A DNA stretch of 64,000 nucleotides from Octopus sinensis (lineage: Eukaryota), in assembly GCF_006345805.1 (NCBI RefSeq), contig NC_043002.1, forward strand, positions 104,222,001-104,286,000, given 5' to 3'. Below, piece by piece: positions 1,414 through 63,583 of this stretch. Below the pieces are notes generated by a model that did no database searches, was not told the DNA's origin, and saw only the letters and a program-made list of their open reading frames with translations. Numbering within the stretch: the first letter of the stretch is position 1; every line of letters starts with the position of its first letter. The translations under genes were made by a program, and so were the position numbers.

Positions 1414-1966
1414 AAACGACTTGATGCAGTACCAGGTAGTGGCTCTCGTGGCTTCTAGTCTTAACTGATTGCAAATGTTATCATGCTTTGTCTTGGTATA
1501 AAGGATGGGCTACAGCAAATACTATTCTGCTCAATACCACAGCTTTGCTTGTCAGGTGTTTGACCTTAACCAGTTGACCATGCCCCTTAGTTGCTGGCGA
1601 TATGTGCATCTCTGATCATGAGCCTCAGTAGTGCGAGAGCATCATAGCCGTGTGTTGAGAGGAATTCTTTGGGGTTTGAGTAATTTACCACGGGAAATAT
1701 TGCTGTTTTATTCACCAGCCTGAAAACAAAATTTATTTAGGGACTTCTTAAGCGGGATGGACTAATCGACCTGAAGAAAATTCTAACTGGGCTCCACCTG
1801 CAGTTTCATGCGCTGTTCAACTTGATATAAGATCACCATGTCGCGTACATATGGTTATGTCGGTGACTATTGTACACTTATCAGACGGGTGGTCATGGCG
1901 AATATATTGGACTTCATATATTGGTACCCCAGTGTCACATTCATTGCATGCACTGCGCTCTCACGC
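1414..1966 (+). mobile_element. ~550-bp non-coding AAT-targeted element, apparently full length
   Basis: Colinear with 2734-3267 and 1-146; (AAT)n on both sides; shared 3' end ..gcatgcactgc.ctctcac.c|aataat. Confidence 0.85.
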
Positions 1967-2000
1967 AATAATAATAATGACAATAATAACAAAAATAATC

Positions 2001-2050
<50 letters not shown>

Positions 2051-2052
<2 letters not shown>

Positions 2053-2714
2053 CAGAGTTGGCCAATATCTCCACTGGCTAATAAGTCGGCATTACAATAT
2101 CAAAACTGCCGACAAGTGGTATAATCACCACCCTGAGGCTGTAACTGAAGGAGAAAATGTAACCATTCTGTGGGACTTTCCAGTACATACAGACCGAACC
2201 ATCAAGGCCAATAAACCAGATATTGTTGTGAAAGACCAAAACAATAAAGTTTGCTTATTGATCGACAGGAGCATCCCCTGTGATCATAATATCTCAGCGA
2301 AAGAGTTTGACAAGCTCAGAAAATATAAAGACCTACTCATTGAAATTGAGAAAATGTGGCATCTCAAGGCGGTTACAATACCAGTGATCGTAGGAGCACT
2401 AGGAATGATCAAGAAGGGAACCGAAAATTATATGAGAATGATCCCTGGCTTACCATCCCTGCAAGAAGTGCAAAAGATTGTCTTAACTGGTACATCACAC
2501 GTATTGAGAAGAGCATTGTCGATGTGAGAACTGTTGCTCCTCATGTATTTTAATTTAACTTTAAAAAATAAAAAAAACAAATAAAAAAATTAACGAACTA
2601 CTGAGTTTGGTTTAATGGCCTACCAATATACACTATGAGTTTCTTTGCCCTAGGAGTCGGGAAGACACTCGGCAAGAAATGGAAGAAAATTTGAAAGAAG
2701 GAAAAAAAAAAAAA
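2051..2714 (+). mobile_element. R4/Dong-like retrotransposon 3' end, family A (open RLE frame + 3' UTR + A/TAA tail)
   Basis: DRVGQYLHW..KWYNHHPE..ILWDFPVHTDRTIKANKPDIVV..LLID..KYKDLLIEIEKMW..PVIVGALG..VQKIVLTGTSHVLRRALSM* (stop 2527); 3' UTR ends in poly(A) then (TAA)n. Confidence 0.92.
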
Positions 2715-2733
2715 ATAATAATAATAATAATAA

Positions 2734-3267
2734 GTGGCTCTCATAGCTTCTGATCATAACTGATTGGAAGTGTTATCATGTACATTGTTTTGTCTTGGTA
2801 TAAAAGATGGTCTACAGCAAATATTCTGCTCAATACCACAGATTTGCTTGTCAGTTGTTTGACCTTAACCAGTTGAGCATGTCCCTTAGTGGCTGACGAT
2901 ATGTGCATCTCTGATCACGAGCAGAAGTAGTGGGGGAGCATCATAGCCATGTGTTGAGAGGGATTCTTTGGGGTTTGAATAATTCACCTCTGGAAACATG
3001 GGTGGTTCTTTCAACATCCTTAAACAACCCTTATTCAGGGACCTTTTGAGCGGGATGGGCTACTCAACCTGAAGAAAATTCTAACTGGGCCCCACCTGCA
3101 AGGTCATGTGCTGTTTATCTTGATATGAGATCACCATGTCGCGCACATATGGTTGTGATGCATGTGCCTGGTGTACCTTTATCAGATGGGTAGTCATGAT
3201 GGGTATATTGGGCTTTCTTTTCTTTTACCCCAGTGTCACTTTGATGGCATGCACTGCTCTCTCACTC
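2734..3267 (+). mobile_element. ~535-bp non-coding AAT-targeted element, slightly 5'-truncated copy
   Basis: Same sequence family as 1414-1966, lacking the first ~25 nt; (AAT)n on both sides. Confidence 0.87.
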
Positions 3268-3346
<79 letters not shown>

Positions 3347-3348
3347 TT

Positions 3349-4040
3349 AATGTAAAGAAAAGAAATATCGCAAGTAACTGCAGAATATGTGGAGATGGAC
3401 AAGAAACAATAAATAATATTATCTCTGGCTGCTCTGTCCTGGCTAAGGAATATATTCACTGACACGACAGATTTGGGACCTATACACACTGGAGGCTATG
3501 CCAACATTATGAAATAACAACAGAAAAAAGATGGTATAGGCACACACCAGAAAAGGTCACAGAAAACGAGAAAGCAACCATACACTGGGATATGCTAATA
3601 CACACAGATAGAGAAATTAAGGCCAACAGACCAGATATAGTTGTCAGAGATCATGAACAAAAAAATGTATTCTAATTGATGTATCAATACCAGCAGATGA
3701 CAACATGTCTCTGAAAAAATGGAGAAACTTTCAAAATACAAAGACCTCGAAATAGAGGTAACCAGAATGTGGAATCTAAAAACAGAAACAATTCCTATCA
3801 TAATAGGTGCATTAGGCATGATAACAAAATATTCAGACAAATACATAACAAAAACACCAGGACTTACAAACACATATAGCATACAGAAAATTGCACTACT
3901 AGGCACTGCACACGTCCTACGTAGACCACTTTCCATACAGTAACCATCAGAGCATCACAACAAATCACAGCACATACCCATGGCACACAGAGCTGCGCTC
4001 GGTAGTGAAGTAAAAGCACGCTATAAAACATATACTACTG
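3349..4040 (+). mobile_element. R4/Dong-like retrotransposon 3' end, family B (CCHC knuckle + RLE + 3' UTR)
   Basis: CRICGDGQETINNIISGC..*HD..WYRHTPEKV..WDMLIHTDREIKANRPDIVV..EKLSKYKDLEIEVTRMW..PIIIGALG..IQKIALLGTAHVLRR; ends ..actactg|aataataat. Confidence 0.93.
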
Positions 4041-4959: not shown

Positions 4960-5279
4960 TTTGACAGCAAAAAAATTGGTACGACCATAAACCCGAGGGC
5001 ATCATCGAAAATAATAATGCAAACATCTTGTGGGATTTTATGATTCAATGCGACCATGAGATAGAGAATAGGAAGCCAGCCATAGTCTTAATTGAGAAAG
5101 GAAACAAACTATGCTGGATCATAGATCTAGCTGACAACAATGTATGCGATAAGGAAGACAGAAAAGTGGAGAGATATGACAGGTTAGCTTGGGAAGTTAA
5201 GCAGTTGTGGTCGATGAAAAAGGTGATAGTAGCACCAATAATTGTCGGAAACCTGGGAGCAGTGAGCAAGAATTTCGAG
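4960..5279 (+). mobile_element. R4/Dong-like RLE fragment, family C
   Basis: KNWYDHKPEGIIENNNANILWDFMIQCDHEIENRKPAIVL..CWIID..KVERYDRLAWEVKQLW..PIIVGNLG; between (GAT/AAT)n and (AAC/AAT)n tracts. Confidence 0.88.
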
Positions 5280-5311
5280 AATAACAATAATAACAATAAT
5301 AACGACAACAA

Positions 5312-6265
5312 CAGTATTGCACAGGAACAATCAGTTGAAGAAATTACACCAAATGCAAGATTGACAATATACAGTATGTGACTAGTGCAGGTATTGAGAT
5401 TTTAGGTGATTCTGTACGGCATATTGTGAATGGATGCAGGAAACTGACCGAGAAAAAAACTAACGAAGACCGATAAAGTTCCGGGAATGACTGATTTGGA
5501 GCTGTGTGGTTAGTTTCACCAAAAACGAGATATGGATAAATCCGAGAAGAGCAGTTTATGGAGCCACGTTAAAAGCATTGGGCGATGAATGATCGATTAT
5601 GACCAGGAATCTAACACTCGACACCAGCGTGCATTGGTTTTGAATCAAAACGTGAAAAACAAACTTGTCTAATCATCGGTATTGCATACATTTAAGGCGG
5701 CAAGCTGGCAGAAACGTTAGCACGACGGGCGAAATGCTTAGCGGTGTTTCGTCTGCCGTTACGTTGTGAGTTCAAATTCCGCCGAGGTCGACTTTGCCTT
5801 TCATCCTTCCGGGGTCGATAAATTAAGTACCAGTTCCGCACTGGGGTCGATGTAATCGACTTAATACCTATGTCTGTCCTTGTTTGTCCCCTCTATGTTT
5901 AGCCCCTTGTGGGTAATAAAGAAATAGGTATTGCATACAGTGGAGATGACAGAGTACTGCAAAAAGGAGAGAAGTAGGTCAGATATGCTGTTTTGAAATC
6001 GGAAATAAGACATTGAAGAAGGTGAATGCTGTAGTTGTTGGAGCCTTGAGTTTTTTATGTACTAAAGTTACAAACTACATTGGAATAGATAAGCTTCAAC
6101 GTAAAGCTACGCTATCTACAAAAATCATTGTTGCTTAGAAATGGATAAAGTTTTCGGAGAGTTCTCGAAACCTGAAGGAGAAGTGATATCCTAGTCTACT
6201 GGTTACAGACAGCGGACATTTTGTTACAATTCCCAGTGTAGCGAAGTAACTGAGTGAAACAAGTA
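5312..6265 (+). mobile_element. Old R4/Dong-like fragment, family D, interrupted by a SINE
   Basis: Decayed IAQEQSV..DSVRHIVNGCRKL..IIGIAY/SGDDRV..VVVGALS; reading frame continues across the SINE at 5691-5926. Confidence 0.7.
5691..5926 (+). mobile_element. SINE family S1 (aaggcggc.agctggcagaa head), full length with 13-bp TSD
   Basis: B-box-like gagttcaaattcc; TSD GGTATTGCATACA at 5678-5690 and 5927-5939; about a dozen related copies in the window. Confidence 0.93.
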
Positions 6266-8622: not shown

Positions 8623-8741
8623 AACAATGATAAATCTCAGAGCGAGTTATAAACAGTGGCGATAACACATCGTGTTGCATATTTGCCATTTGAATTATAC
8701 TGTTATACTGTTTATAACTCGCTCTGAGATTTATCATTGTT
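8623..8741. repeat. Perfect 35-bp inverted repeat with 49-nt spacer (palindromic MITE-like)
   Basis: aacaatgataaatctcagagcgagttataaacagt (8623-8657) is the exact reverse complement of 8707-8741. Confidence 0.95.
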
Positions 8742-8792
8742 TGATTTCACTTTTTCAATATCAGTGTCAAATCGACACTGGAAAAAGTATAT

Positions 8793-9046
8793 GTATTTGT
8801 GAAGGGATCTGACTTCTCATCGACGACCATGATTGTCACATGCTGATGAAAGGTAAACACCTTGAAACTCGGGTACGTGTGTATCATGTGTTGAAGACGG
8901 GGAGGATGACTCCCCTTCACAAATACTGACAGGACACAGATAGTGTGTCTATGGCCAGCTGGAGGAGATATCTTCCTGGGGCTACAAACTACAGTAGCAT
9001 CCACCCTTATGGGTTAGCCATATTCAAATGGCATATATGCATCACT
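8793..9046 (+). mobile_element. Partial foldback element carrying a hammerhead (family of 49430-49823)
   Basis: 8935-9046 (agatagtgtgtctatggccagctggaggagatatcttcctggggcta..) is homologous to the arm of 49430-49823; inner inverted repeat gtatttgtgaaggg (8793-8806)/cccttcacaaatac (8913-8926) encloses the ribozyme. Confidence 0.75.
8828..8888 (+). ncRNA. Type I hammerhead ribozyme, intact catalytic core
   Basis: CATGAT-tgt-CACATG / CTGATGA / AAGGT-aaac-ACCTT / GAAAC-tcgg-GTA / CGTGTG-t-ATCATG: bulged stem I (6+6 bp), 5-bp stem II, 2-bp stem III, GUA cleavage triplet ending at 8875. Confidence 0.88.
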
Positions 9047-9050
9047 ATAT

Positions 9051-13019: not shown

Positions 13020-13990
13020 TAATGGGTAGTGGAAATATTGGAATTAGAATGATTTGACACTACTTGTGAAAAGTAAAGCACTGAGCGCAATAGCATCAGC
13101 CAAAGAAAGTAATGAAGTGGAGGGCCTAGGAACTGTGAAGAAAATTCTGCCAGAAAACTAGTACAGACGTTTAAATGATAGTAGCACCAGCCTCGGAAAC
13201 AACCTAGACCTTGGTTGTGGAAGACGTGGCTTTCGTTGAAATGCTTAAACAACAGTCAAGCACACGCACTCGTATATTGTCCTTGGTCCTTCACAAATCA
13301 TCATCAATCGACACCTTCATGAGCTCGACATTGGGAACAGACGCTGTCATGAACTGACCGATGTCCAAGTTTAACGAAGTGTGAATATTGACAAACAACT
13401 GCTGGTGAATCGTCAAAATTCCCGTTTTGTTGTTGAATTGTAATTCGGAATGAAAACTGGATATATTTTCGCATTCCCGATGAGGAAAGTCAGTGATTTT
13501 GTTCCGTCCAGGCTTCTTAACATGTTTTCAAAAAGTGATAATTTGAACAAATTGTCATGTGTGTTTAGTGGAATTTTTCGATGTGGCCTTTCACTTTGAG
13601 CTTGTTTCAGATGTTAATGCTGTAAACGCTAACCTTTCTACTCAAGAACTGCAGCGAGTATACGATGCTTTGAAAACAGGTTAACCGGGATTAGCCAGTC
13701 GAAGATGCGCACGCCTAAGGCATGACAATGCCCCAGCGCACATTACTAATGTGACCAAACGTAAATTTCAAGAACTTACCGGACTGGATGTACCACCCCT
13801 CCCCGCCTACATTCCAGACTATGTACCATCATTTTACCACATTGTACAAGACATGGTTCGTTGTCTATACGGATGGAGTTGCTTTATATTTTTTTCAATG
13901 AGGTAAAATTCCTCATTTAAAAATGCTAGAAATGGTTAAGTTTTGGCTTATATTTTTGAATGAAGAAGGCTTCCTTATTTAATCTAATTT
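13020..13990 (+). pseudogene. Fossil mariner (DD34D-type) transposase
   Basis: Decayed SAKESNEVEGLGTV..*YRRLNDSSTSL, CV*WNF..HFELV..AVNANL..QELQRVYDAL, LRHDNAPAH, PAYIPDYVPSFYH (cf. HDNA and YSPDLAPSDYH); many stops and frameshifts. Confidence 0.85.
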
Positions 13991-14050
13991 GTGTTGTTGT
14001 TCCAATGGCACATTGATTAAATGGAAAGAATACAAATTGTGGTAGCAATT

Positions 14051-14318
14051 GCCTTGCGCATTTCTCAATATGTTCACCTAAGGGTATTCTTCTGTATTCT
14101 GGGAATGCGATCTGCTGTCGGTGCAGAGTGCATCTGCGTCTGAACGATAATCCCGTGGACCCTATGTAGTTTTGGTGGCAGCCCGAGCATCAAATAACAT
14201 AAATTCGGTTTTCTGAAGCTCAAGTAAAGTCAGATTTGATTTTGAACTTTTGTCTCTCTTTGATAAAGAATTCTGAACCTTCTCGGAGTTTTGGGTATGT
14301 TGTGCAATTTGGTCGATC
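14051..14318 (-). pseudogene. Penelope-like element GIY-YIG endonuclease fragment
   Basis: Minus strand: RPNCTTYPKL..FKIKSDFT*ASENRIYVI*CSGCHQNYIGSTGLSFRRRCTLHRQQIAFPEYRRIPLGEHIEKCA (IY..CxxC..YIG.T..R..H..H). Confidence 0.85.
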
Positions 14319-14589
14319 ATAATTATGAATCTGTGTGTGTGTGATTCTGACCGTTTTGTCCTTGGGTATATGTGAATATATACAGTATGTGCATATGTTT
14401 ATGTGCACATAACAACGTATTTCCTTTATGTTTGGTTAGAGTGAAATATTTAACGTTCTTCCTTAATAGAAGCAAATGCCGATATTTCTTCAGCATTTTA
14501 ATTACCAGGAGCGTCCTCGTGCTGGGAACGCTGTAATTTCCGTTCCTCTCTCTTTTTCAGAATGCATACGCACATGTATGATAAAAGGT

Positions 14590-17280: not shown

Positions 17281-17329
<49 letters not shown>
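17138..17329. repeat. (ATT)n/(GTT)n microsatellite
   Basis: Direct reading. Confidence 0.97.
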
Positions 17330-17333
<4 letters not shown>

Positions 17334-19047
17334 CAGTTTTATTTTTATACCATCTTTTTTCTGATGTTATTCCATAATGTTGGCATAGCTTCCAGTATAT
17401 GTAGGTCCCAACTCTGTCGTGTCTGTGAATATATTCCTTCTTAGACAGGACAGGGCAGCCAGAGATAATATGATATATTGTTTCTTGTCCATCTCCACAT
17501 ATTCTGCAGTTACTTTTTATATTTCTTTTCATTACATGTTTTTGGTAATTTCTGGTGGGGAGGCTTTGGTCTTCTGCTGCAATTAAAAATCCCTCTGTCT
17601 CTGCTTGAGTCCTGAGCTTCTCAACCATTGCTGGGATTTTTCTTTGTCTATTTCTTTTGCGTTTAGTTTAGTCCAGTATTTACCATGAAGGGGCTTTTCT
17701 TGCTATCGTTTTATCATGGTTCGTTGCTGTTCTATTTTTAGTTTGGATTTCATTTGTTTTATAGCTTTTGTTGTCTCTTCATCTTCTTCTTCTTCTTCTT
17801 CTTCATGTTTATTAGGTGGTATGATTTCTTGTTTGTATTTGTCAGCTTCCTTAAATACTGAGAACAGTTTTTTGTTTTGCTCGTGTTTTGCCGCTATCTG
17901 GATCAGTTTTCATTCCTTCTGAAGTAGATATTTTTGCAGTCCTATGGTGGTTATTTTATAGTAGTTTTCCAGCTGCATAAGGCCTCTACCACCTTCTATA
18001 CGTTGTATACATAGTCTTTCTATGTCAGATTTTGGGTGATGCATCCTAGATCCTGTCATTATTTTTCTTGTTTTCCTATCTATTTTGGTCAGTTCATTTC
18101 GTGTCCAGTTAAGGATATTGTAGCTGTAACTTATAACTGGGACAGCTAAAGTGTTGATACCTATTATCTTGTTTTTAGCATTGAGCTCTGTTTTTAGTAT
18201 TGATCTAACTCGTCTATAATATTCTTTTTTATTTTCTGTTTCATTTGTGTGTGTTGTGTCTTATCTAGTTCATGGATTCCTAAGTATTTGTAAGTTTGGC
18301 TTTGGTCTAATTCTTTTATTTCATTGGTTTTATCTAGTGTGATGTTGTTACTCTTAACTAGTTTTCCTCTTTTCATGGTTACTTTGGCGCATTTTTCTAA
18401 TCCAAATTTCATATCTATTTCTTTGGTAAATCCATGAACTGTCTTTAATAGTGTTTCCAGCTGTTTGTCATTTGCAGCGTATAGTTTTAGGTCATCCATA
18501 TATAAAAGGTGGCTGATCGTTTTGCCGTAACATTTATATCCGCATCCAGTTCTATTTAGTATATCAGATAGAGGTGACAGTGCCAAGCAGAAAAGGAGTG
18601 GATAGAGCGTGTCTCCCTGGAATATTCCTCTTCTAATTGGGATGTCTTTGGTTTTCATGAGTCCCTCTTTTGTTTGGAGGTGTAGGACTCTTTGCCATTT
18701 ACTCATAGAGTGCTCTATGAATCTTATGATTGTTGGTGTTACTTTGTTAATGGCTAGTGTTTCGAGGATCCATGTGTGGGGGATGCTATCAAACGCCTTG
18801 TTGTAGTGAATCCAGGTCATACTGAGACCTTTCTTCTTTCTGTGGCTGTCTTCAGTTATGGTTTTATTAATCATTAGTTGATCTTTACAGCCATATGAGC
18901 CTTTGCGGCATCCTTTCTGCTCTTCTGGGAACAGTTTGTTTTCGTCCAGGTGCTTGTTCAGCCTTTGCGATATCACTGCAGTAAATGCCTTGAACATAGT
19001 AGGGAGGCAGGTTATTGGTCTGTAGTCTTCTGGTTTTTCTGTTTCAT
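17330..19047 (-). mobile_element. R4/Dong-like family B, 1.7-kb RT + CCHC fragment with internal deletion of RLE
   Basis: YRPITCL, EQKGCRKGSYGCKDQL, KAFDSIPH, RGIFQGD, HLLYMDDLKLY, FGLEKC, YKYLG, CRICGDGQETIYHIISGC, RHD; frameshifts; 3' part near-identical to 3349-3540. Confidence 0.95.
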
Positions 19048-19064
19048 TATTATTATTATTATCC

Positions 19065-19102
<38 letters not shown>

Positions 19103-19105
<3 letters not shown>

Positions 19106-19330
19106 TAGTTTTATTTTTATAGCGTGCTTTCACTTCACTACCGAGCGCAGCTCTGTGTGCCATGGGTATGTGCTGTGATGCTTTGATGGTTATTGTATGG
19201 AAAGTGTTCTGCGTAGGATGTGTGCAGTGCCTAGTAGTGCAATTTTCTGTATGTTATATGTGTTTGTAAGTCCTGGTGTTTTTGTTATGTATTTGTCTGA
19301 ATATTTTTTTATCATGCCTAATGCACCTAC

Positions 19331-19331
<1 letters not shown>
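19103..19331 (-). mobile_element. R4/Dong-like family B, short 3' end
   Basis: Reverse complement of ~3803-4040 (VGALGMIKKYSDK..GTAHILRRTLSIQ* + 3' UTR); (ATT)n on both sides. Confidence 0.93.
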
Positions 19332-19380
<49 letters not shown>

Positions 19381-19810
19381 GGCTATATTAGCACGGAGTC
19401 TCTTCGATGTTTGAGTGGCGAATCTCTAGAGTCTTTCTTAGGATTCTAAAAAAAAATAGTAACAAAGGATGGTATATTATTGCGGGTCGATTATGCGATT
19501 ACCAATTGCAGTATGCTTCAATCTCTTAGGTAACAAGTTGGACATTGTACCAAGTGCACCTATTACCTGAAGAAATATCTTCATCTCACCGACTAAATAC
19601 TGATGGTTTTTGCTTCCAATTTCTTTATTAGTTTCTTTTGTATCCAGGCAATTAACAGTTGGTATTGCAAAGTCAATGATGTCACGCAATATCGCATTGT
19701 GCTCTGTAATCATCCGTGGTCTCAATGCTTCATTATTATGCCAAGTCTCTATGGAGAAATCGCATAAAATCTTGTAATATTTACTCTCTCTCACAGCGTT
19801 TCGCCGTCTT
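19381..19810 (-). mobile_element. Old R4/Dong-like RLE fragment, family F
   Basis: KILCDFSIET..ALRP..IIDFAIP..VIGALGT..LPKRLK. Confidence 0.75.
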
Positions 19811-48330: not shown

Positions 48331-49429
48331 AGCCTCTTGATTAGTATATAAACATATTGGCCTCTAATTTCTTTGGGGACAGTCAAATTGATGCCGATAC
48401 GTCTGACGGAACCCACTAAGTTCGGAAGTCAGTTAAGGCTTCTCATCATTGTTTCAACATGTGTATGTGCGTGTGTGTGTGCGTGTCTGTGCGTGTGTGT
48501 GGTTGGCGAAAAATTTGAAATTATTATAAATAGGTTTTGTCTTTTTACTCATCTGGCCTATTAACTTCACTAACTCAACTACAAATCAGATCGTTATTAT
48601 TTCTTTACTCAAGATGATGCTTAACTGCAGTTCCTCCTTCGTCGATGGTCAATGGGGTCACACGTGAGACAATCTTTATTCATAATTGTTTCAAGAAATA
48701 ATTTATCGATCATGTCCTCTCGTTTTTAAGCAATGGCATGTTTCTAGAACACATTAGAAATGGAAATATTTTCAAGGCACTCTGCTCGAAATAGGTAAAA
48801 TGTAGTTGAAGATCACCAAGATTATATAGAAACCACGCTTCTCATGAAGACTCGCGATGATATTTCATGGCAGGATCACAAGACGAAAAAGAACGTTTCT
48901 GTACACATTGCACGGATGACTAGGAGAGATGCTGAACGTTGATGAACACTGGTATCGTAGAAGATGTAATATTTTGGAAAATTCTGTAAGCTAATACAAG
49001 ACGATCACTACTCAAAAGTATTCATGTTTCTGTCGCACCCCAATGTCGCAACTTCAACGAATCATCATCAGTCTCCGAAGGATAATTCTACGAGGAACTT
49101 CGCAAATACTGCTCCGTCTGTTAATTTCTACATTGGTTGTGTAAGCCAAAGAACAAATGTGGTCCCACCGTATTGACTCCGTTATATTTAACACCAAACA
49201 AGATTTCGTAAATGTGCCATTTTCGTTTTCTTTTTGAGTAGTATGGGATTTTAGAGAGCTGTAGCTATTCCTTGGTCACAGAGCGACAGAAAATATACTA
49301 ATAAAGGGAATTATTACAATTCTCAATATTCTCTTAAGTTATTTGCTATGTTTTATTGCTTACTTTTGGCAAAAAAAAAAAACAAACTTGAAGCATAATG
49401 ATTGTACGAAGTGAATCGTTAAAGATAAA

Positions 49430-49823
49430 GGAGTAAAGATTATTTGCCAACATAACATGGCAGTCCTGGTTTAGGACGAATGTTACTGTAATTCAGCCCC
49501 GGAAGACATCGTCTCCAGATGGCTATACAACACGATCTGTGTCCTTTTACTTTTGAACAAGGGAATCTAGCACCCTCACTCAGCTCAAAAAAATATCTAT
49601 GTACAGCGATTTTCGGGTTATTTCCCTTCCTCAGCACAGGATAATTGTTCGGCTAGAGGTGGCGCTGCCAAATTCCCGTTGGGTGCTTGATTGTCTTCGA
49701 AAATATAATGATATAGATCGTGTTGTATAGCCAGTTGGAGAGGATGTCTTCTGGGGCTAAATTACAGCAACATTCGCCTTAAGCCAGGACTGCCATTTTA
49801 TGTTGGCAAATAATCTTTACTCC
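49430..49823. mobile_element. ~390-bp foldback element with long inverted arms and a central hammerhead
   Basis: ggagtaaagattatttgccaacataa.atggcagtcctgg..tggctatacaacacgatct (49430-~49540) inverted at ~49712-49823 with about 90% identity; weaker pairing continues inward. Confidence 0.92.
49594..49643 (-). ncRNA. Type I hammerhead-like motif (stem III imperfect)
   Basis: Minus strand TATCCTGTG / CTGAGGA / a-GGG-aaataa-CCC / GAAA-atcgct-GTA / CATAGATA; 15.2-16.2 is an A.G mismatch. Confidence 0.72.
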
Positions 49824-50285
49824 AAAGTAATGTTGCTGAATATCTCTCGTTGTGAGATTTACAAATAGTAGTTTTCTAATTAAATATAATGTTTAACAAT
49901 GTTCTCTATTTAAATTATAACGACATACAAGTTGGTTGAAGGATTTTTCGAGTCAGATTGTATATAGTATACAGAGAGAGTGGGAGAGAGAGAGAGAGGA
50001 AGGGAGAGAATAAAAAATGTATTACATAAAGTCGATAGACGAACATTGATATTCACATCAACACAAACACTGAGAGAGTATGCCAAAGATGATAAAAGTT
50101 ACGCTGTCGATGGACGCCAAAGACATGACACGCGCTTAAACACTAACATACACACACACATACACAAACACACACACATAACTACATTTTAAAAAGAAAG
50201 ATAAACTCGAGAAACAGTTTGTTACTCTAAAATTTACATACATATAAACATGCATGCATACATATACATATGCATGCATCATACA

Positions 50286-55965: not shown

Positions 55966-56456
55966 GTAGAGACATGTGTGTTTATGTATGTATATAGGTA
56001 TATATATATTTATACACATATGTGTATACATATATATATATGTATATCTGTATGTAAGTATGAATGTATATATATATATATATATATATTATATATTTTT
56101 TTTTACACATATGTTATATATATAATTTTTTAAATTCTAAGAGTTGCTCCATAAATAATCATCCATGTAATGTTTCCAGTTTACTTGTAATTATTTTTGG
56201 AAGCTGCCTTCAAATTTCAGTCCAACGTGCTCGTATATTTGGACTTCCAATTATGCCAGGGCAAAGTTAGCAAAAGTTAGGTCTTTTTTCGCTAACCTTG
56301 TCATGGCAAAAACTATTGACTTCCAAGAATTACGAAAGACAAGAAAAACCCATGACACACTTAAAACGTCTTACGTATCAACACACAATCGAGTGACATG
56401 TAAGCTTAGGTCATCAACCAAAACATGAACGACCTACCTAAGCAAACTACTAGACC

Positions 56457-56689
56457 TATTTCTTTATTACCCACAAGGGGCTGAACATAGAGGAGACAAA
56501 CATGGACAGACATAGGTATTAAGTCGATTATATCGACCCCAGTGCTTAACTGGTACTTAATTTATCGACCCCGAAATTATGAAAGGCAAAGTCGACCTCG
56601 GCGGAATTTGAACTCACAACGTAACGGCAGACGAAATACCGCTAAGCATTTCGCCCGACGTGCTAACGATTCTGCTAGCTCGCCGCCTT
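56457..56689 (-). mobile_element. SINE S1, full length with 16-bp TSD
   Basis: TSD agcaaactactagacc at 56441-56456 and 56690-56705. Confidence 0.94.
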
Positions 56690-56849
56690 AGCAAACTACT
56701 AGACCGATGCTCCGCAGACATAAACCCGAAATATCAAATTTTCCCTTTCTATCAATGGACCAGAAACACTTCAACTCAATTTCTATTGATTATGAAATGC
56801 ATACTTATTGAAAACTATAAACCACAGCTAAATATTCTTTTATAACAAA

Positions 56850-61662: not shown

Positions 61663-62343
61663 AACTTTAATATTTGTCTTGTGGAAATTGTTATCCGAAC
61701 CTCTTTCTGTTCATGCTTTCCAATTTTAAAATCGGGGTATAAAAGTTCTTGACAACTATTGCTGGGGTATTTTTTTCCCTTGAGGTATGAACTTGGCTCT
61801 AAGCACTAAAATGTTACACTAATCCTTGAGAGACATATATAACTGCGTCAAACCTTGTCTTCTGATATAGCTTCGGAGCCGAAGACTTATGAATGGGGCT
61901 GGTTGATGGAAACTGAAAGAATCCCGTATATATATACATATATGTATATGTGTGTGGGTGTATCTGTCTGTCTGTCTTTGACCTCCACCACGGCTTGATG
62001 ACCAGTGTTGGTGTGTTTCCGTCCCCGTCTCCGGCAAAAGGAAACGATGGCTAAATATTAGGCTTTAAAAATGTAAGTACTGACGTGAATTCATTCGAGT
62101 AAATTTTCTTGAAGGCGGTGCCCCAGCATGGACTCAGATTAAGGATTCAAAAAAGCGAAAGATAAACCATAAAGGATATTATTTAATGAAATATTCACGG
62201 AAGAAAATGAAGAACCCGACAGAAAGGAGATATTTTTGCAATTTTGGATTGCTAAATCTTCACTTTGTGTCAATTGTGGCAGACGGTTATTTCATAAACG
62301 AAAATATAAGCACACACGTGCACACGCTCTTGCGCATATATAT

Positions 62344-62385
<42 letters not shown>

Positions 62386-62575
62386 GTGAAATAGAAATAA
62401 TAATCTTGTTGCAGATTAATCAAAAGTTTAACCGATACCTTGGTAGCAAAAATCACACCAGAAAAAAATACCCCAGCAATAGTTGTCAAGAACTTTTATA
62501 CCCCGATTTTAAAATTGGAAAGCATGAACAGAAAGAGGTTCGGATAACAATTTCCACAAGACAAAAATTAAAGTT
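61663..62575. repeat. 115-bp inverted repeat pair (61663-61777 / 62461-62575), one mismatch
   Basis: aactttaatatttgtcttgtgg..ggggtatttttttc versus gaaaaaaatacccc..ccacaagacaaaaattaaagtt. Confidence 0.94.
61840..62165 (+). mobile_element. SINE S2, degenerate
   Basis: tatagcttcggagccga..ggaaactgaaagaatcccgt..aaggcggtgccccagcatgg. Confidence 0.75.
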
Positions 62576-63355: not shown

Positions 63356-63377
63356 AATATTACGATGTACTTATATA

Positions 63378-63583
63378 GCAAGTGACCTAATCTGAGATCG
63401 TCTGCTGGAACGAAAACAATTGCAGCGTGGAAGATGTTTATAAGCCATTTAAGAACATACAGAATTTTGTCAGTGAACAGGTCGCGGTCTCAAAGAGACG
63501 AAACTATTTTGATAAATTTTATTAAATGATGAAGTGAATCTAACGGTTTTGTGTGTTTCTTAAACACCTTCCACGCTGCAATT
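63378..63583. mobile_element. Palindromic element enclosing a hammerhead-like motif
   Basis: aattgcagcgtggaagatgttta (63418-63440) / taaacaccttccacgctgcaatt (63561-63583), 22/23 match; inner tttaagaacatacagaa / ttttgtgtgtttcttaaa; left boundary approximate. Confidence 0.82.
63463..63519 (+). ncRNA. Minimal type I hammerhead-like motif with G3-C8 core swap
   Basis: aattttgtca / GTGAACA / g-GTCGC-ggtctcaaa-GAGAC / GAAA-ctat-TT / tgataaatt. Confidence 0.6.

What the first reader, a model, noticed from the sequence alone, without database searches (positions are those of the whole stretch)
49430..49823. Foldback elements with a hammerhead at the apex: MITE-like shape, retro-type ribozyme
Seen: ~110-145-bp inverted arms fold the element into one rod whose tip is a type I hammerhead motif on the minus strand. 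The partial element at 8793-9046 has a homologous arm and an apical hammerhead with different but still pairing stems (stem II AAGGU/ACCUU versus GGG/CCC; stem I CACAUG/CGUGUG versus CUGUG/CAUAG), which is covariation across diverged relatives. An unrelated palindrome at 63418-63583 has the same design. Known: MITEs are DNA elements that need no ribozyme, and hammerheads occur in Penelope pLTRs and retrozymes, usually within the repeated unit. Inference: a class of non-autonomous RNA-mobilised hairpin elements, possibly PLE-dependent, that repeat annotators would label as MITEs. I cannot confirm it is undescribed.
Basis: partly seen in the sequence, partly recalled or inferred. Interest (0 to 1): 0.85.

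Follow-up and report, generated by a model that had tools for sequence, protein, structure and literature searches.

The report
Head-to-head hammerhead retrozyme insertion, Penelope-style
The hairpin is real, but it is two cut-short, back-to-back copies of a 350-base protein-free repeat that carries a predicted self-cutting RNA motif, likely pasted in by a Penelope-type jumping-gene enzyme, so it is a new example of a known kind of element and not a new class of hairpin transposon.

Summary
The palindrome (128-nt arms, 88%) and a hammerhead-shaped motif on its minus strand are real, as are the motifs at 8837 and 63466. The fixed-hairpin reading is not supported. The true insertion is 49430-49879: a 350-nt non-coding unit laid down twice, head to head, each copy 5'-truncated, with a 56-nt tail on one side and a 10-nt target duplication. 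Of 70 loci picked on the ribozyme, 54 are inverted pairs with scattered junctions, 42 end at exactly one short site and one tail site (none at two alike), 22 run on into tandem units, and only 9 have one hammerhead at the apex. Duplications of 10-15 nt stand in 26 of 70 (control 43 of 4830). The two arms of one insertion share private variants. This is the described insertion shape of Penelope-like elements on a non-LTR retrozyme-type unit. Cleavage, RNA circles and the autonomous partner are not shown; this copy's ribozyme looks decayed. Side results: some junctions recur inside the ribozyme's own stem, and the third element carries a G3-C8-swapped core. This scan has reported the same layout, and the swapped core, on other DNA many times.

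The parts
49430..49879 (.). Whole family A insertion (450 nt): two 5'-truncated copies of a 350-nt unit, head to head
49430..49680 (-). Long arm, unit positions 46-294; carries the hammerhead; ends at the 'short' 3' site
   Evidence: 89% to natural unit L031:1307-1656
49681..49879 (+). Inverted arm, unit positions about 150-350; no hammerhead; ends at the 'tail' 3' site
   Evidence: 88%
49824..49879 (+).
49597..49639 (-). Type I hammerhead-shaped motif (core at 49634-49628, predicted cut between 49602 and 49601); likely decayed in this copy
49552..49680 (-). The unit's own long imperfect stem I (about 45 bp) around the ribozyme; left limit approximate
49419..49428 (+). Left target-site duplication (10 nt, one mismatch to the right copy)
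49880..49889 (+). Right target-site duplication
8624..9048 (.). Whole family B insertion in a (TA)n tract: inverted tail-bearing stub 8624-8695, 10-nt filler, forward arm 8706-9048 that runs through the unit junction
8837..8881 (+). Family B type I hammerhead, canonical core, 5-bp stem II, palindromic stem III
63359..63583 (.). Family C insertion in a (TA)n tract: inverted tail-bearing arm to 63464, forward arm 63466-63582; outer limits approximate
63466..63516 (+). Family C minimal hammerhead-shaped motif with swapped G3-C8 core; stems II and III damaged in this copy

Best explanation
The element is one insertion of a 350-nt protein-free repeat with one hammerhead-shaped motif per unit, laid down as two 5'-truncated copies head to head, likely by the reverse transcriptase-endonuclease of a Penelope-like element (PLE) working in trans. 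Shown: unit, tandem read-through, two fixed 3' end sites 56 nt apart, variable inner junctions, 10-15-nt target duplications, arms of one insertion sharing private variants. Inferred: the PLE enzyme cuts both target strands with a 10-15-nt stagger; each cut end primes a cDNA on the same RNA (a multimer or a circle), one at the short site and one at the tail site; both stop early and are joined, sometimes by annealing through the two strands of the ribozyme's own stem I, which leaves one hammerhead at the tip of a DNA palindrome. Inferred from known retrozymes: the ribozyme cuts multimeric transcripts into units, as a dimer, and is not needed for the insertion step itself.
For: Ends: 42 of 70 ribozyme-picked loci end short+tail, 0 short+short, 0 tail+tail; 14 of 26 arm-picked loci short+tail, 1 tail+tail (3 loci are in both sets). 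Head-to-head inversion in 54 of 70 and 18 of 26, no fixed junction. Target duplications of 10 nt or more: 26 of 70 (24 of 42 short+tail), control 43 of 4830 mismatched flank pairs. Tandem read-through in 22 of 70; 2.5 units of period 351 in L031. Within-insertion arms share non-modal bases: family A 67 of 725 variant sites against 3178 of 61760 between insertions; family B 29 of 65 against 128 of 1925; 0 of 2000 permutations each. Families B (12 of 26 inverted, 13 of 26 tandem) and C (16 of 28 inverted) show the same layout. Papers: inverted 5'-truncated copy plus one-sided tail is the PLE signature; a PLE protein cuts and extends both strands, starts at two sites that bracket the tail, and does not need ribozyme cleavage in vitro. 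The genome holds open 775-781-aa RT + GIY-YIG frames.
Against: No autonomous partner found: none of 50 fetched GIY-YIG loci (from 150 scored of 5029 candidates; some loci overlap) shares its end with units A, B or C. The tail (56 nt in A, about 45 in B, about 60 in C) is longer than the 30-40 nt in the papers. Shared arm variants could also come from conversion between inverted arms after insertion. 44 of 70 loci show no duplication of 10 nt or more by my rule. The commonest family A form has an A-G pair, not G-C, at the base of stem II, and a subgroup has a further stem II mismatch, so activity is uncertain. No clear pile-up of 5' ends at the predicted cut site in the pattern sets (1 of 112 and 4 of 38 ends within 118-128). 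Cleavage, transcripts and circles are untested.
Confidence: 0.85

Rival explanations
1. A fixed hairpin element (MITE-like or an RNA-mobilised rod) with constant arms and an apical ribozyme is the mobile unit.
For: The query found 29 similar-looking palindromes; five independent insertions share the same junction and the same tail side (L025, L037, L113, L121, L125).
Against: That set was chosen by likeness to the palindrome. In pattern-picked sets the shape is 9 of 70 and 1 of 26; junctions scatter; the tail lies on either side of the ribozyme; duplications vary in length. The five same-junction copies share no arm-specific differences, while some share private variants between their own two arms.
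Confidence: 0.04
2. Same unit and same PLE enzyme, but the inverted arm arises by snap-back self-priming of one cDNA (the self-priming idea of Arkhipova et al. 2013), not by priming from both target strands.
For: Junction overlaps of 4 nt or more in 21 of 72 junctions (three are counted twice); 5 of 54 lie on the unit's own stem (null mean 1.6, 49 of 5000 permutations); arms share private variants.
Against: In this copy and in 36 of 55 short+tail family A copies (17 of 19 in family B) the longer arm ends at the short site while the shorter arm carries the tail; a copy folded back from a tail-less cDNA cannot gain the tail, unless the first cDNA had read through a unit junction.
Confidence: 0.2
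3. The copies are only stumps of the end repeat (pLTR) of an autonomous PLE, not an independent retrozyme.
For: The layout is that of truncated PLE insertions; retrozymes derive from pLTRs. For family C no tandem unit junction was seen.
Against: In A and B the tail joins straight to the sequence upstream of the ribozyme, closing a 350/353-nt unit without coding sequence; tblastn of five PLE frames finds nothing attached to A, B or C copies except one short unlinked hit 1.2 kb away.
Confidence: 0.1

Closest known systems
Metazoan non-LTR retrozymes (Cervera and de la Pena 2020, PMC7229834: passages and parts 2 and 4 of 6 read; Li, Clavereau and Pollet 2026, bioRxiv 10.64898/2026.07.22.740005: parts 1-3 of 5 read, supplements not seen)
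   Same: Non-coding unit of about 350 nt (mussel 350-390), GC under 50%, one type I hammerhead per unit, monomers to short tandems, long TSDs, PLEs in the same genome.
   Different: In the parts read neither paper describes inverted arms or a one-sided tail on retrozyme copies; here these are the commonest form. RNA circles and cleavage were shown there, not here.
Insertions of endonuclease-bearing PLEs with inverted 5'-truncated copy and tail (Arkhipova et al. 2013, PMC3846280, passages; Craig et al. 2021, bioRxiv 10.1101/2021.04.23.441226 and PMC8557442, passages; Frangieh et al. 2024, PMC11167929, parts 1-2 of 4)
   Same: Head-to-head inverted copy, partial tandems, tail on one end, 8-10-nt or longer TSDs, AT-rich and (TA)n targets, two 3' end sites.
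   Different: No ORF in the unit; tail 45-60 nt instead of 30-40; no partner identified. Non-autonomous PLE derivatives with pLTRs are known from Chlamydomonas (MRC1).
Minimal type I hammerheads of PLEs (Cervera and de la Pena 2014, PMC4209133, parts 1-2 of 4; core variants in Perreault et al. 2011, PMC3088659, passages)
   Same: Palindromic stem III region predicted to work as a dimer; extra base before stem II in family C.
   Different: Family A has A-G at the base of stem II; family C has G3-C8, whereas the passages read report only U3-A8 as natural and C3G/G8C as a partly active laboratory double mutant.
MITEs of DDE transposons (defining features recalled, from no call)
   Same: Short, non-coding, palindromic look, high copy number.
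   Different: Asymmetric ends, variable inner junction, variable 10-15-nt TSD, tandem read-through.

Membership tests
Non-LTR retrozyme | Non-coding unit of 150-450 nt, low GC, in tandem copies | tested here: met
   350-351-nt unit (A), 353-nt (B); tandem read-through 22 of 70 and 13 of 26; no PLE coding match
Non-LTR retrozyme | A type I hammerhead motif in each unit | tested here: met
   Both whole units of L031 and tandem units of L062 carry it; family A with a non-standard A-G pair; no Rfam match
Non-LTR retrozyme | Self-cleavage in vitro | not testable with these tools
   needs an assay
Non-LTR retrozyme | Expressed as linear and circular unit-length RNA | tested here: inconclusive
   No listed holder on record as RNA; only contigs could be laid
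Non-LTR retrozyme | TSDs longer than 4 bp, no LTR/PBS/PPT | tested here: met
   10-15 nt in 26 of 70, control 43 of 4830; PBS/PPT not searched
EN+ PLE-type insertion | Inverted 5'-truncated copy head to head | tested here: met
   54 of 70, 18 of 26
EN+ PLE-type insertion | Tail on one end only | tested here: met
   42 short+tail, none alike, of 70; longer than the published 30-40 nt
Autonomous PLE | ORF with RT and GIY-YIG | tested here: not met
   No ORF in the unit; no PLE match attached
Non-autonomous PLE derivative | End sequence shared with an autonomous family | tested here: inconclusive
   None in 50 GIY-YIG loci, a small and score-biased sample
MITE | Symmetric fixed TIRs and constant length | tested here: not met
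   One-sided tail; lengths 224-679 nt in the first 30 loci
MITE | Fixed short TSD | tested here: not met
   6-15 nt, variable
PLE minimal hammerhead (family C) | Stem I, core, extra base 9.1, G10.1-C11.1, GAAA, palindromic stem III | tested here: met
   All present with 3 and 8 swapped; 348 exact copies of the 51-nt motif

The most novel reading that the evidence does not exclude
Retrozyme copies record the PLE reaction directly: both target strands prime cDNA on one RNA, one strand at each of two fixed sites, and the two cDNAs are joined by annealing, with the ribozyme's own stem I as a recurrent joining point. MITE-like palindromes with a hammerhead at the tip would then be a predictable product of any PLE-moved RNA with a long ribozyme stem, and these short units would be ready substrates to test the unresolved second half of PLE integration. 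A natural, abundant G3-C8 hammerhead (family C) would come with it.
Probability: 0.35. Interest if true: 0.55.

Novelty: new member of a known kind. Interest (0 to 1): 0.3.

Why it matters
It links two things that the papers read treat apart: retrozymes, for which PLE mobilisation is proposed from co-occurrence and end homology, and the PLE insertion footprint. Here the footprint stands on hundreds of retrozyme-type copies, with a strict one-short, one-tail rule that a mechanism has to explain. It also warns annotators that such palindromes are not MITEs. The class and the layout are known, and this scan has already reported them many times, so the gain is a test case more than a discovery.

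Tried and rejected
Rfam: no hammerhead family matched any of the three motifs. RNA: no RNA holder listed for the family B unit; contigs of four runs guessed to be RNA cover parts of it, show no joints and cannot show ends or circles: no evidence either way. An empty-site check of this insertion in other runs was not obtained, so its boundaries rest on family comparison and the TSD. Partner search: GIY-YIG scan and 50 loci; a family B copy 880 nt upstream of a PLE frame in L270 is a separate insertion between TA tracts; three weak local alignments (z 3.1-3.5 among 78 comparisons) were dropped, and the best one lies in flank outside the PLE. Helitron/Helentron reading (asymmetric inverted repeats plus end hairpin) considered and dropped because of TSDs and variable junctions. 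Permuted (SGC-type) hammerhead considered for family C and dropped once the swapped-core reading fitted every stem. Core conservation: 588 of 601 core bases match the modal base against 14158 of 15111 in the arm (8770 of 9182 without CpG-type sites), in loci not picked by the ribozyme pattern but partly picked by likeness to the whole window copy: a weak difference among related copies, not used as evidence of selection. The idea that the tails are remnants of a PLE N-terminus was noticed by eye and not tested. Rows dropped: L016 (same as L015), L196, L209, L218, L223, L137, L146, L155, L163, L289, L301, L093 (same insertion or locus as a neighbour); L116 and L007 are one insertion, as are L213-215 with L110-112. 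PMC10886601 (passages) held the terms only in its references. Paper searches for an earlier description: (five terms together: 0 papers); for a natural G3-C8: (none found; subscription papers such as Lunse et al. 2017, recalled only, are outside the library, and bioRxiv supplements were not seen).

Full report
Observation. The window lies in a 2.72-Gb animal genome; earlier scan notes call it an octopus, which I did not test. The inverted arms are real: 49430-49557 and 49696-49823, 128 nt, 88% complementary, and the minus strand folds as a single rod (z -24). Rfam matches none of them.

The unit. A search of the genome with the palindrome gave 109 matches from 40 scored candidates of 2765. Flank comparison showed that every one of the 30 loci carries a further stretch of up to about 56 nt beyond the palindrome, on the left or on the right of the ribozyme. 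A tandem locus (L031, period 351) shows the tail joining straight to the sequence upstream of the ribozyme, which closes a non-coding unit of 350-351 nt: core at 92, predicted cut after 123, 'short' end at 294, 'tail' end at 350. The unit folds into a branched structure whose only long helix is its own stem I, about 45 bp around the ribozyme. Exact-pattern counts are 356 for 23 nt of the ribozyme and 1136 for 24 nt of the arm. The window copy is unit 46-294 on the minus strand (49680-49430) joined to unit 150-350 on the plus strand (49681-49879), with a 10-nt duplication carrying one mismatch.

Shape of the copies. To avoid picking palindromes I took 70 loci of the 356 ribozyme-pattern matches, in genome order (five already held were skipped and close pairs merged), and 26 of the first 30 arm-pattern loci (four were the other end of the same insertion). 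In the 70: 54 have a head-to-head inversion, 42 end at one short and one tail site, none at two alike, 22 run through the unit junction, 9 are a simple foldback with one ribozyme at the tip. In the 26: 18 inverted, 14 short+tail, 1 tail+tail, 7 hold a whole core, 1 has the apical shape. Duplications of 10 nt or more flank 26 of 70 (24 of the 42), against 43 of 4830 mismatched flank pairs; lengths run 10-15. Junction positions scatter over the whole unit. The two arms of one insertion share non-modal bases more often than arms of different insertions: 67 of 725 against 3178 of 61760 in family A (69 insertions), 29 of 65 against 128 of 1925 in the young family B (21 insertions), 0 of 2000 permutations in each. 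Conversion between arms could add to this, but with the scattered junctions it says that the palindrome is made anew at each site.

Why the ribozyme is sometimes at the tip. Five of 54 junctions fall exactly on the pairing diagonal of the unit's own stem I, with 6-15 nt of overlap (null mean 1.6; 49 of 5000 permutations). One such junction (77/131) recurs in five insertions with different flanks, which share no arm-specific differences. In the ribozyme-picked set 35 of 112 inner ends fall at 63-84, just past the ribozyme, against 13 in the 50 nt beyond; selection for a whole core shapes this, but the drop suggests stalling in the stem. The window copy's own junction (46/150, no overlap) is off that diagonal.

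The other two elements. 8624-9048 is a whole family B insertion in a TA tract: an inverted tail-bearing stub, a filler, and 343 nt of a 353-nt unit. Family B is young (96-98% among the best matches), has 102 exact copies of a 35-nt canonical hammerhead, and shows 12 inversions and 13 tandems in 26 loci. Its arm and tail are 65% identical to family A over 157 nt, so the differing but pairing stems are a real contrast between two related families, a sample of two. 63359-63583 belongs to family C, about 208 nt, 16 of 28 loci inverted, 25 of 28 starting within the first 7 nt of the reference copy with no shared sequence upstream. Its motif has a 7-bp stem I, an extra base before stem II, G10.1-C11.1, GAAA and a palindromic stem III, as listed for PLE minimal hammerheads, but the core reads GUGAACA: positions 3 and 8 are swapped. 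The 51-nt motif has 348 exact copies, and 18 of 24 loci picked on the whole element parse with this core.

Ribozyme state. Among 51 core-spanning family A segments not picked by the ribozyme pattern, 37 parse; 35 have CUGAUGA; stem III variants fit CpG decay of a palindrome; stem II is GGG/CCC closed by A-G, and a subgroup has a further mismatch. The window copy has lost the family's G12 and breaks stem III, so it is likely inactive. Nothing here shows cleavage.

Mechanism. Craig et al. (passages) describe PLE insertions with an inverted 5'-truncated copy and a tail on one end; Arkhipova et al. (passages) describe inverted pLTRs with 8-10-nt TSDs; Frangieh et al. (parts 1-2 of 4) show that a PLE protein cuts and extends both target strands, starts at two sites that bracket the tail, and does not need ribozyme cleavage. 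From these and the counts above I infer two-ended priming on one RNA and joining of the two cDNAs. Snap-back of a single cDNA fits less well: in this copy and in 36 of 55 short+tail family A copies (17 of 19 in B) the longer arm lacks the tail that the shorter arm has. The genome holds open 775-781-aa RT + GIY-YIG frames with a Cys motif before the endonuclease, as in Neptune and Nematis, but none of 50 loci examined shares ends with A, B or C. The partner is unnamed. Whether the template is a circle or a linear multimer is not shown; the sequencing runs were uninformative.

Comparison and novelty. The unit meets the sequence-level definition of metazoan non-LTR retrozymes, whose PLE link is already proposed; expression and cleavage are untested. 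It fails the MITE tests. I found no paper that describes inverted, tailed retrozyme copies or cephalopod retrozymes or a natural G3-C8 core (searches; one search reports U3-A8 only), within a library that lacks most subscription papers and with preprint supplements unseen. Earlier notes of this scan give the same reading for this genome and others, including the two-ended idea and the swapped core; they are not independent support. Verdict: real feature, new member of a known kind, interest 0.3.

Noticed in passing
window 63466-63516 (+); L284-L313: Family C: abundant minimal hammerhead-shaped motif with reciprocal G3-C8 core (348 exact copies) in a ~208-nt element with a nearly fixed 5' end whose first bases can pair with the short-end site.
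   Followed up: partly
window 13935-14348 (-); 56134-56301 (-); 56687-56839 (+): Broken PLE GIY-YIG fragment (70% to the L278 frame) and weaker PLE remnants.
   Followed up: partly
L190:47-416: A further family B-related element (about 70% identical) with the same inverted-arm and tail layout and an altered hammerhead, so the A/B group has more members.
   Followed up: no
L270/L272, about 500 nt behind the ORF; L264-L269: One PLE family carries a type I hammerhead in its 3' end; the young 781-aa family gave no hammerhead with my descriptor and shows two alternative 3' ends before TA tracts.
   Followed up: partly
window 61663-61777 and 62461-62575: 115-nt inverted repeat, 99% complementary, 683 nt apart: possibly a young TIR element or another inverted insertion.
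   Followed up: no
window 1826-2527, 3124-3462, 4965-5381 (+); 17326-19809 (-): Fragments that look like non-LTR retrotransposon reading frames (RT and restriction-like endonuclease motifs, recalled), with (AAT)n tracts.
   Followed up: no
L001-L041 and L198-L219, unit positions 101 and 111: A family A subgroup with two linked changes that weaken stem II appears in several copies, suggesting it spread with a poor ribozyme.
   Followed up: no
Family B words are held by runs of seven coded organism labels; only four runs of organism A were laid, so this is not checked.
   Followed up: no
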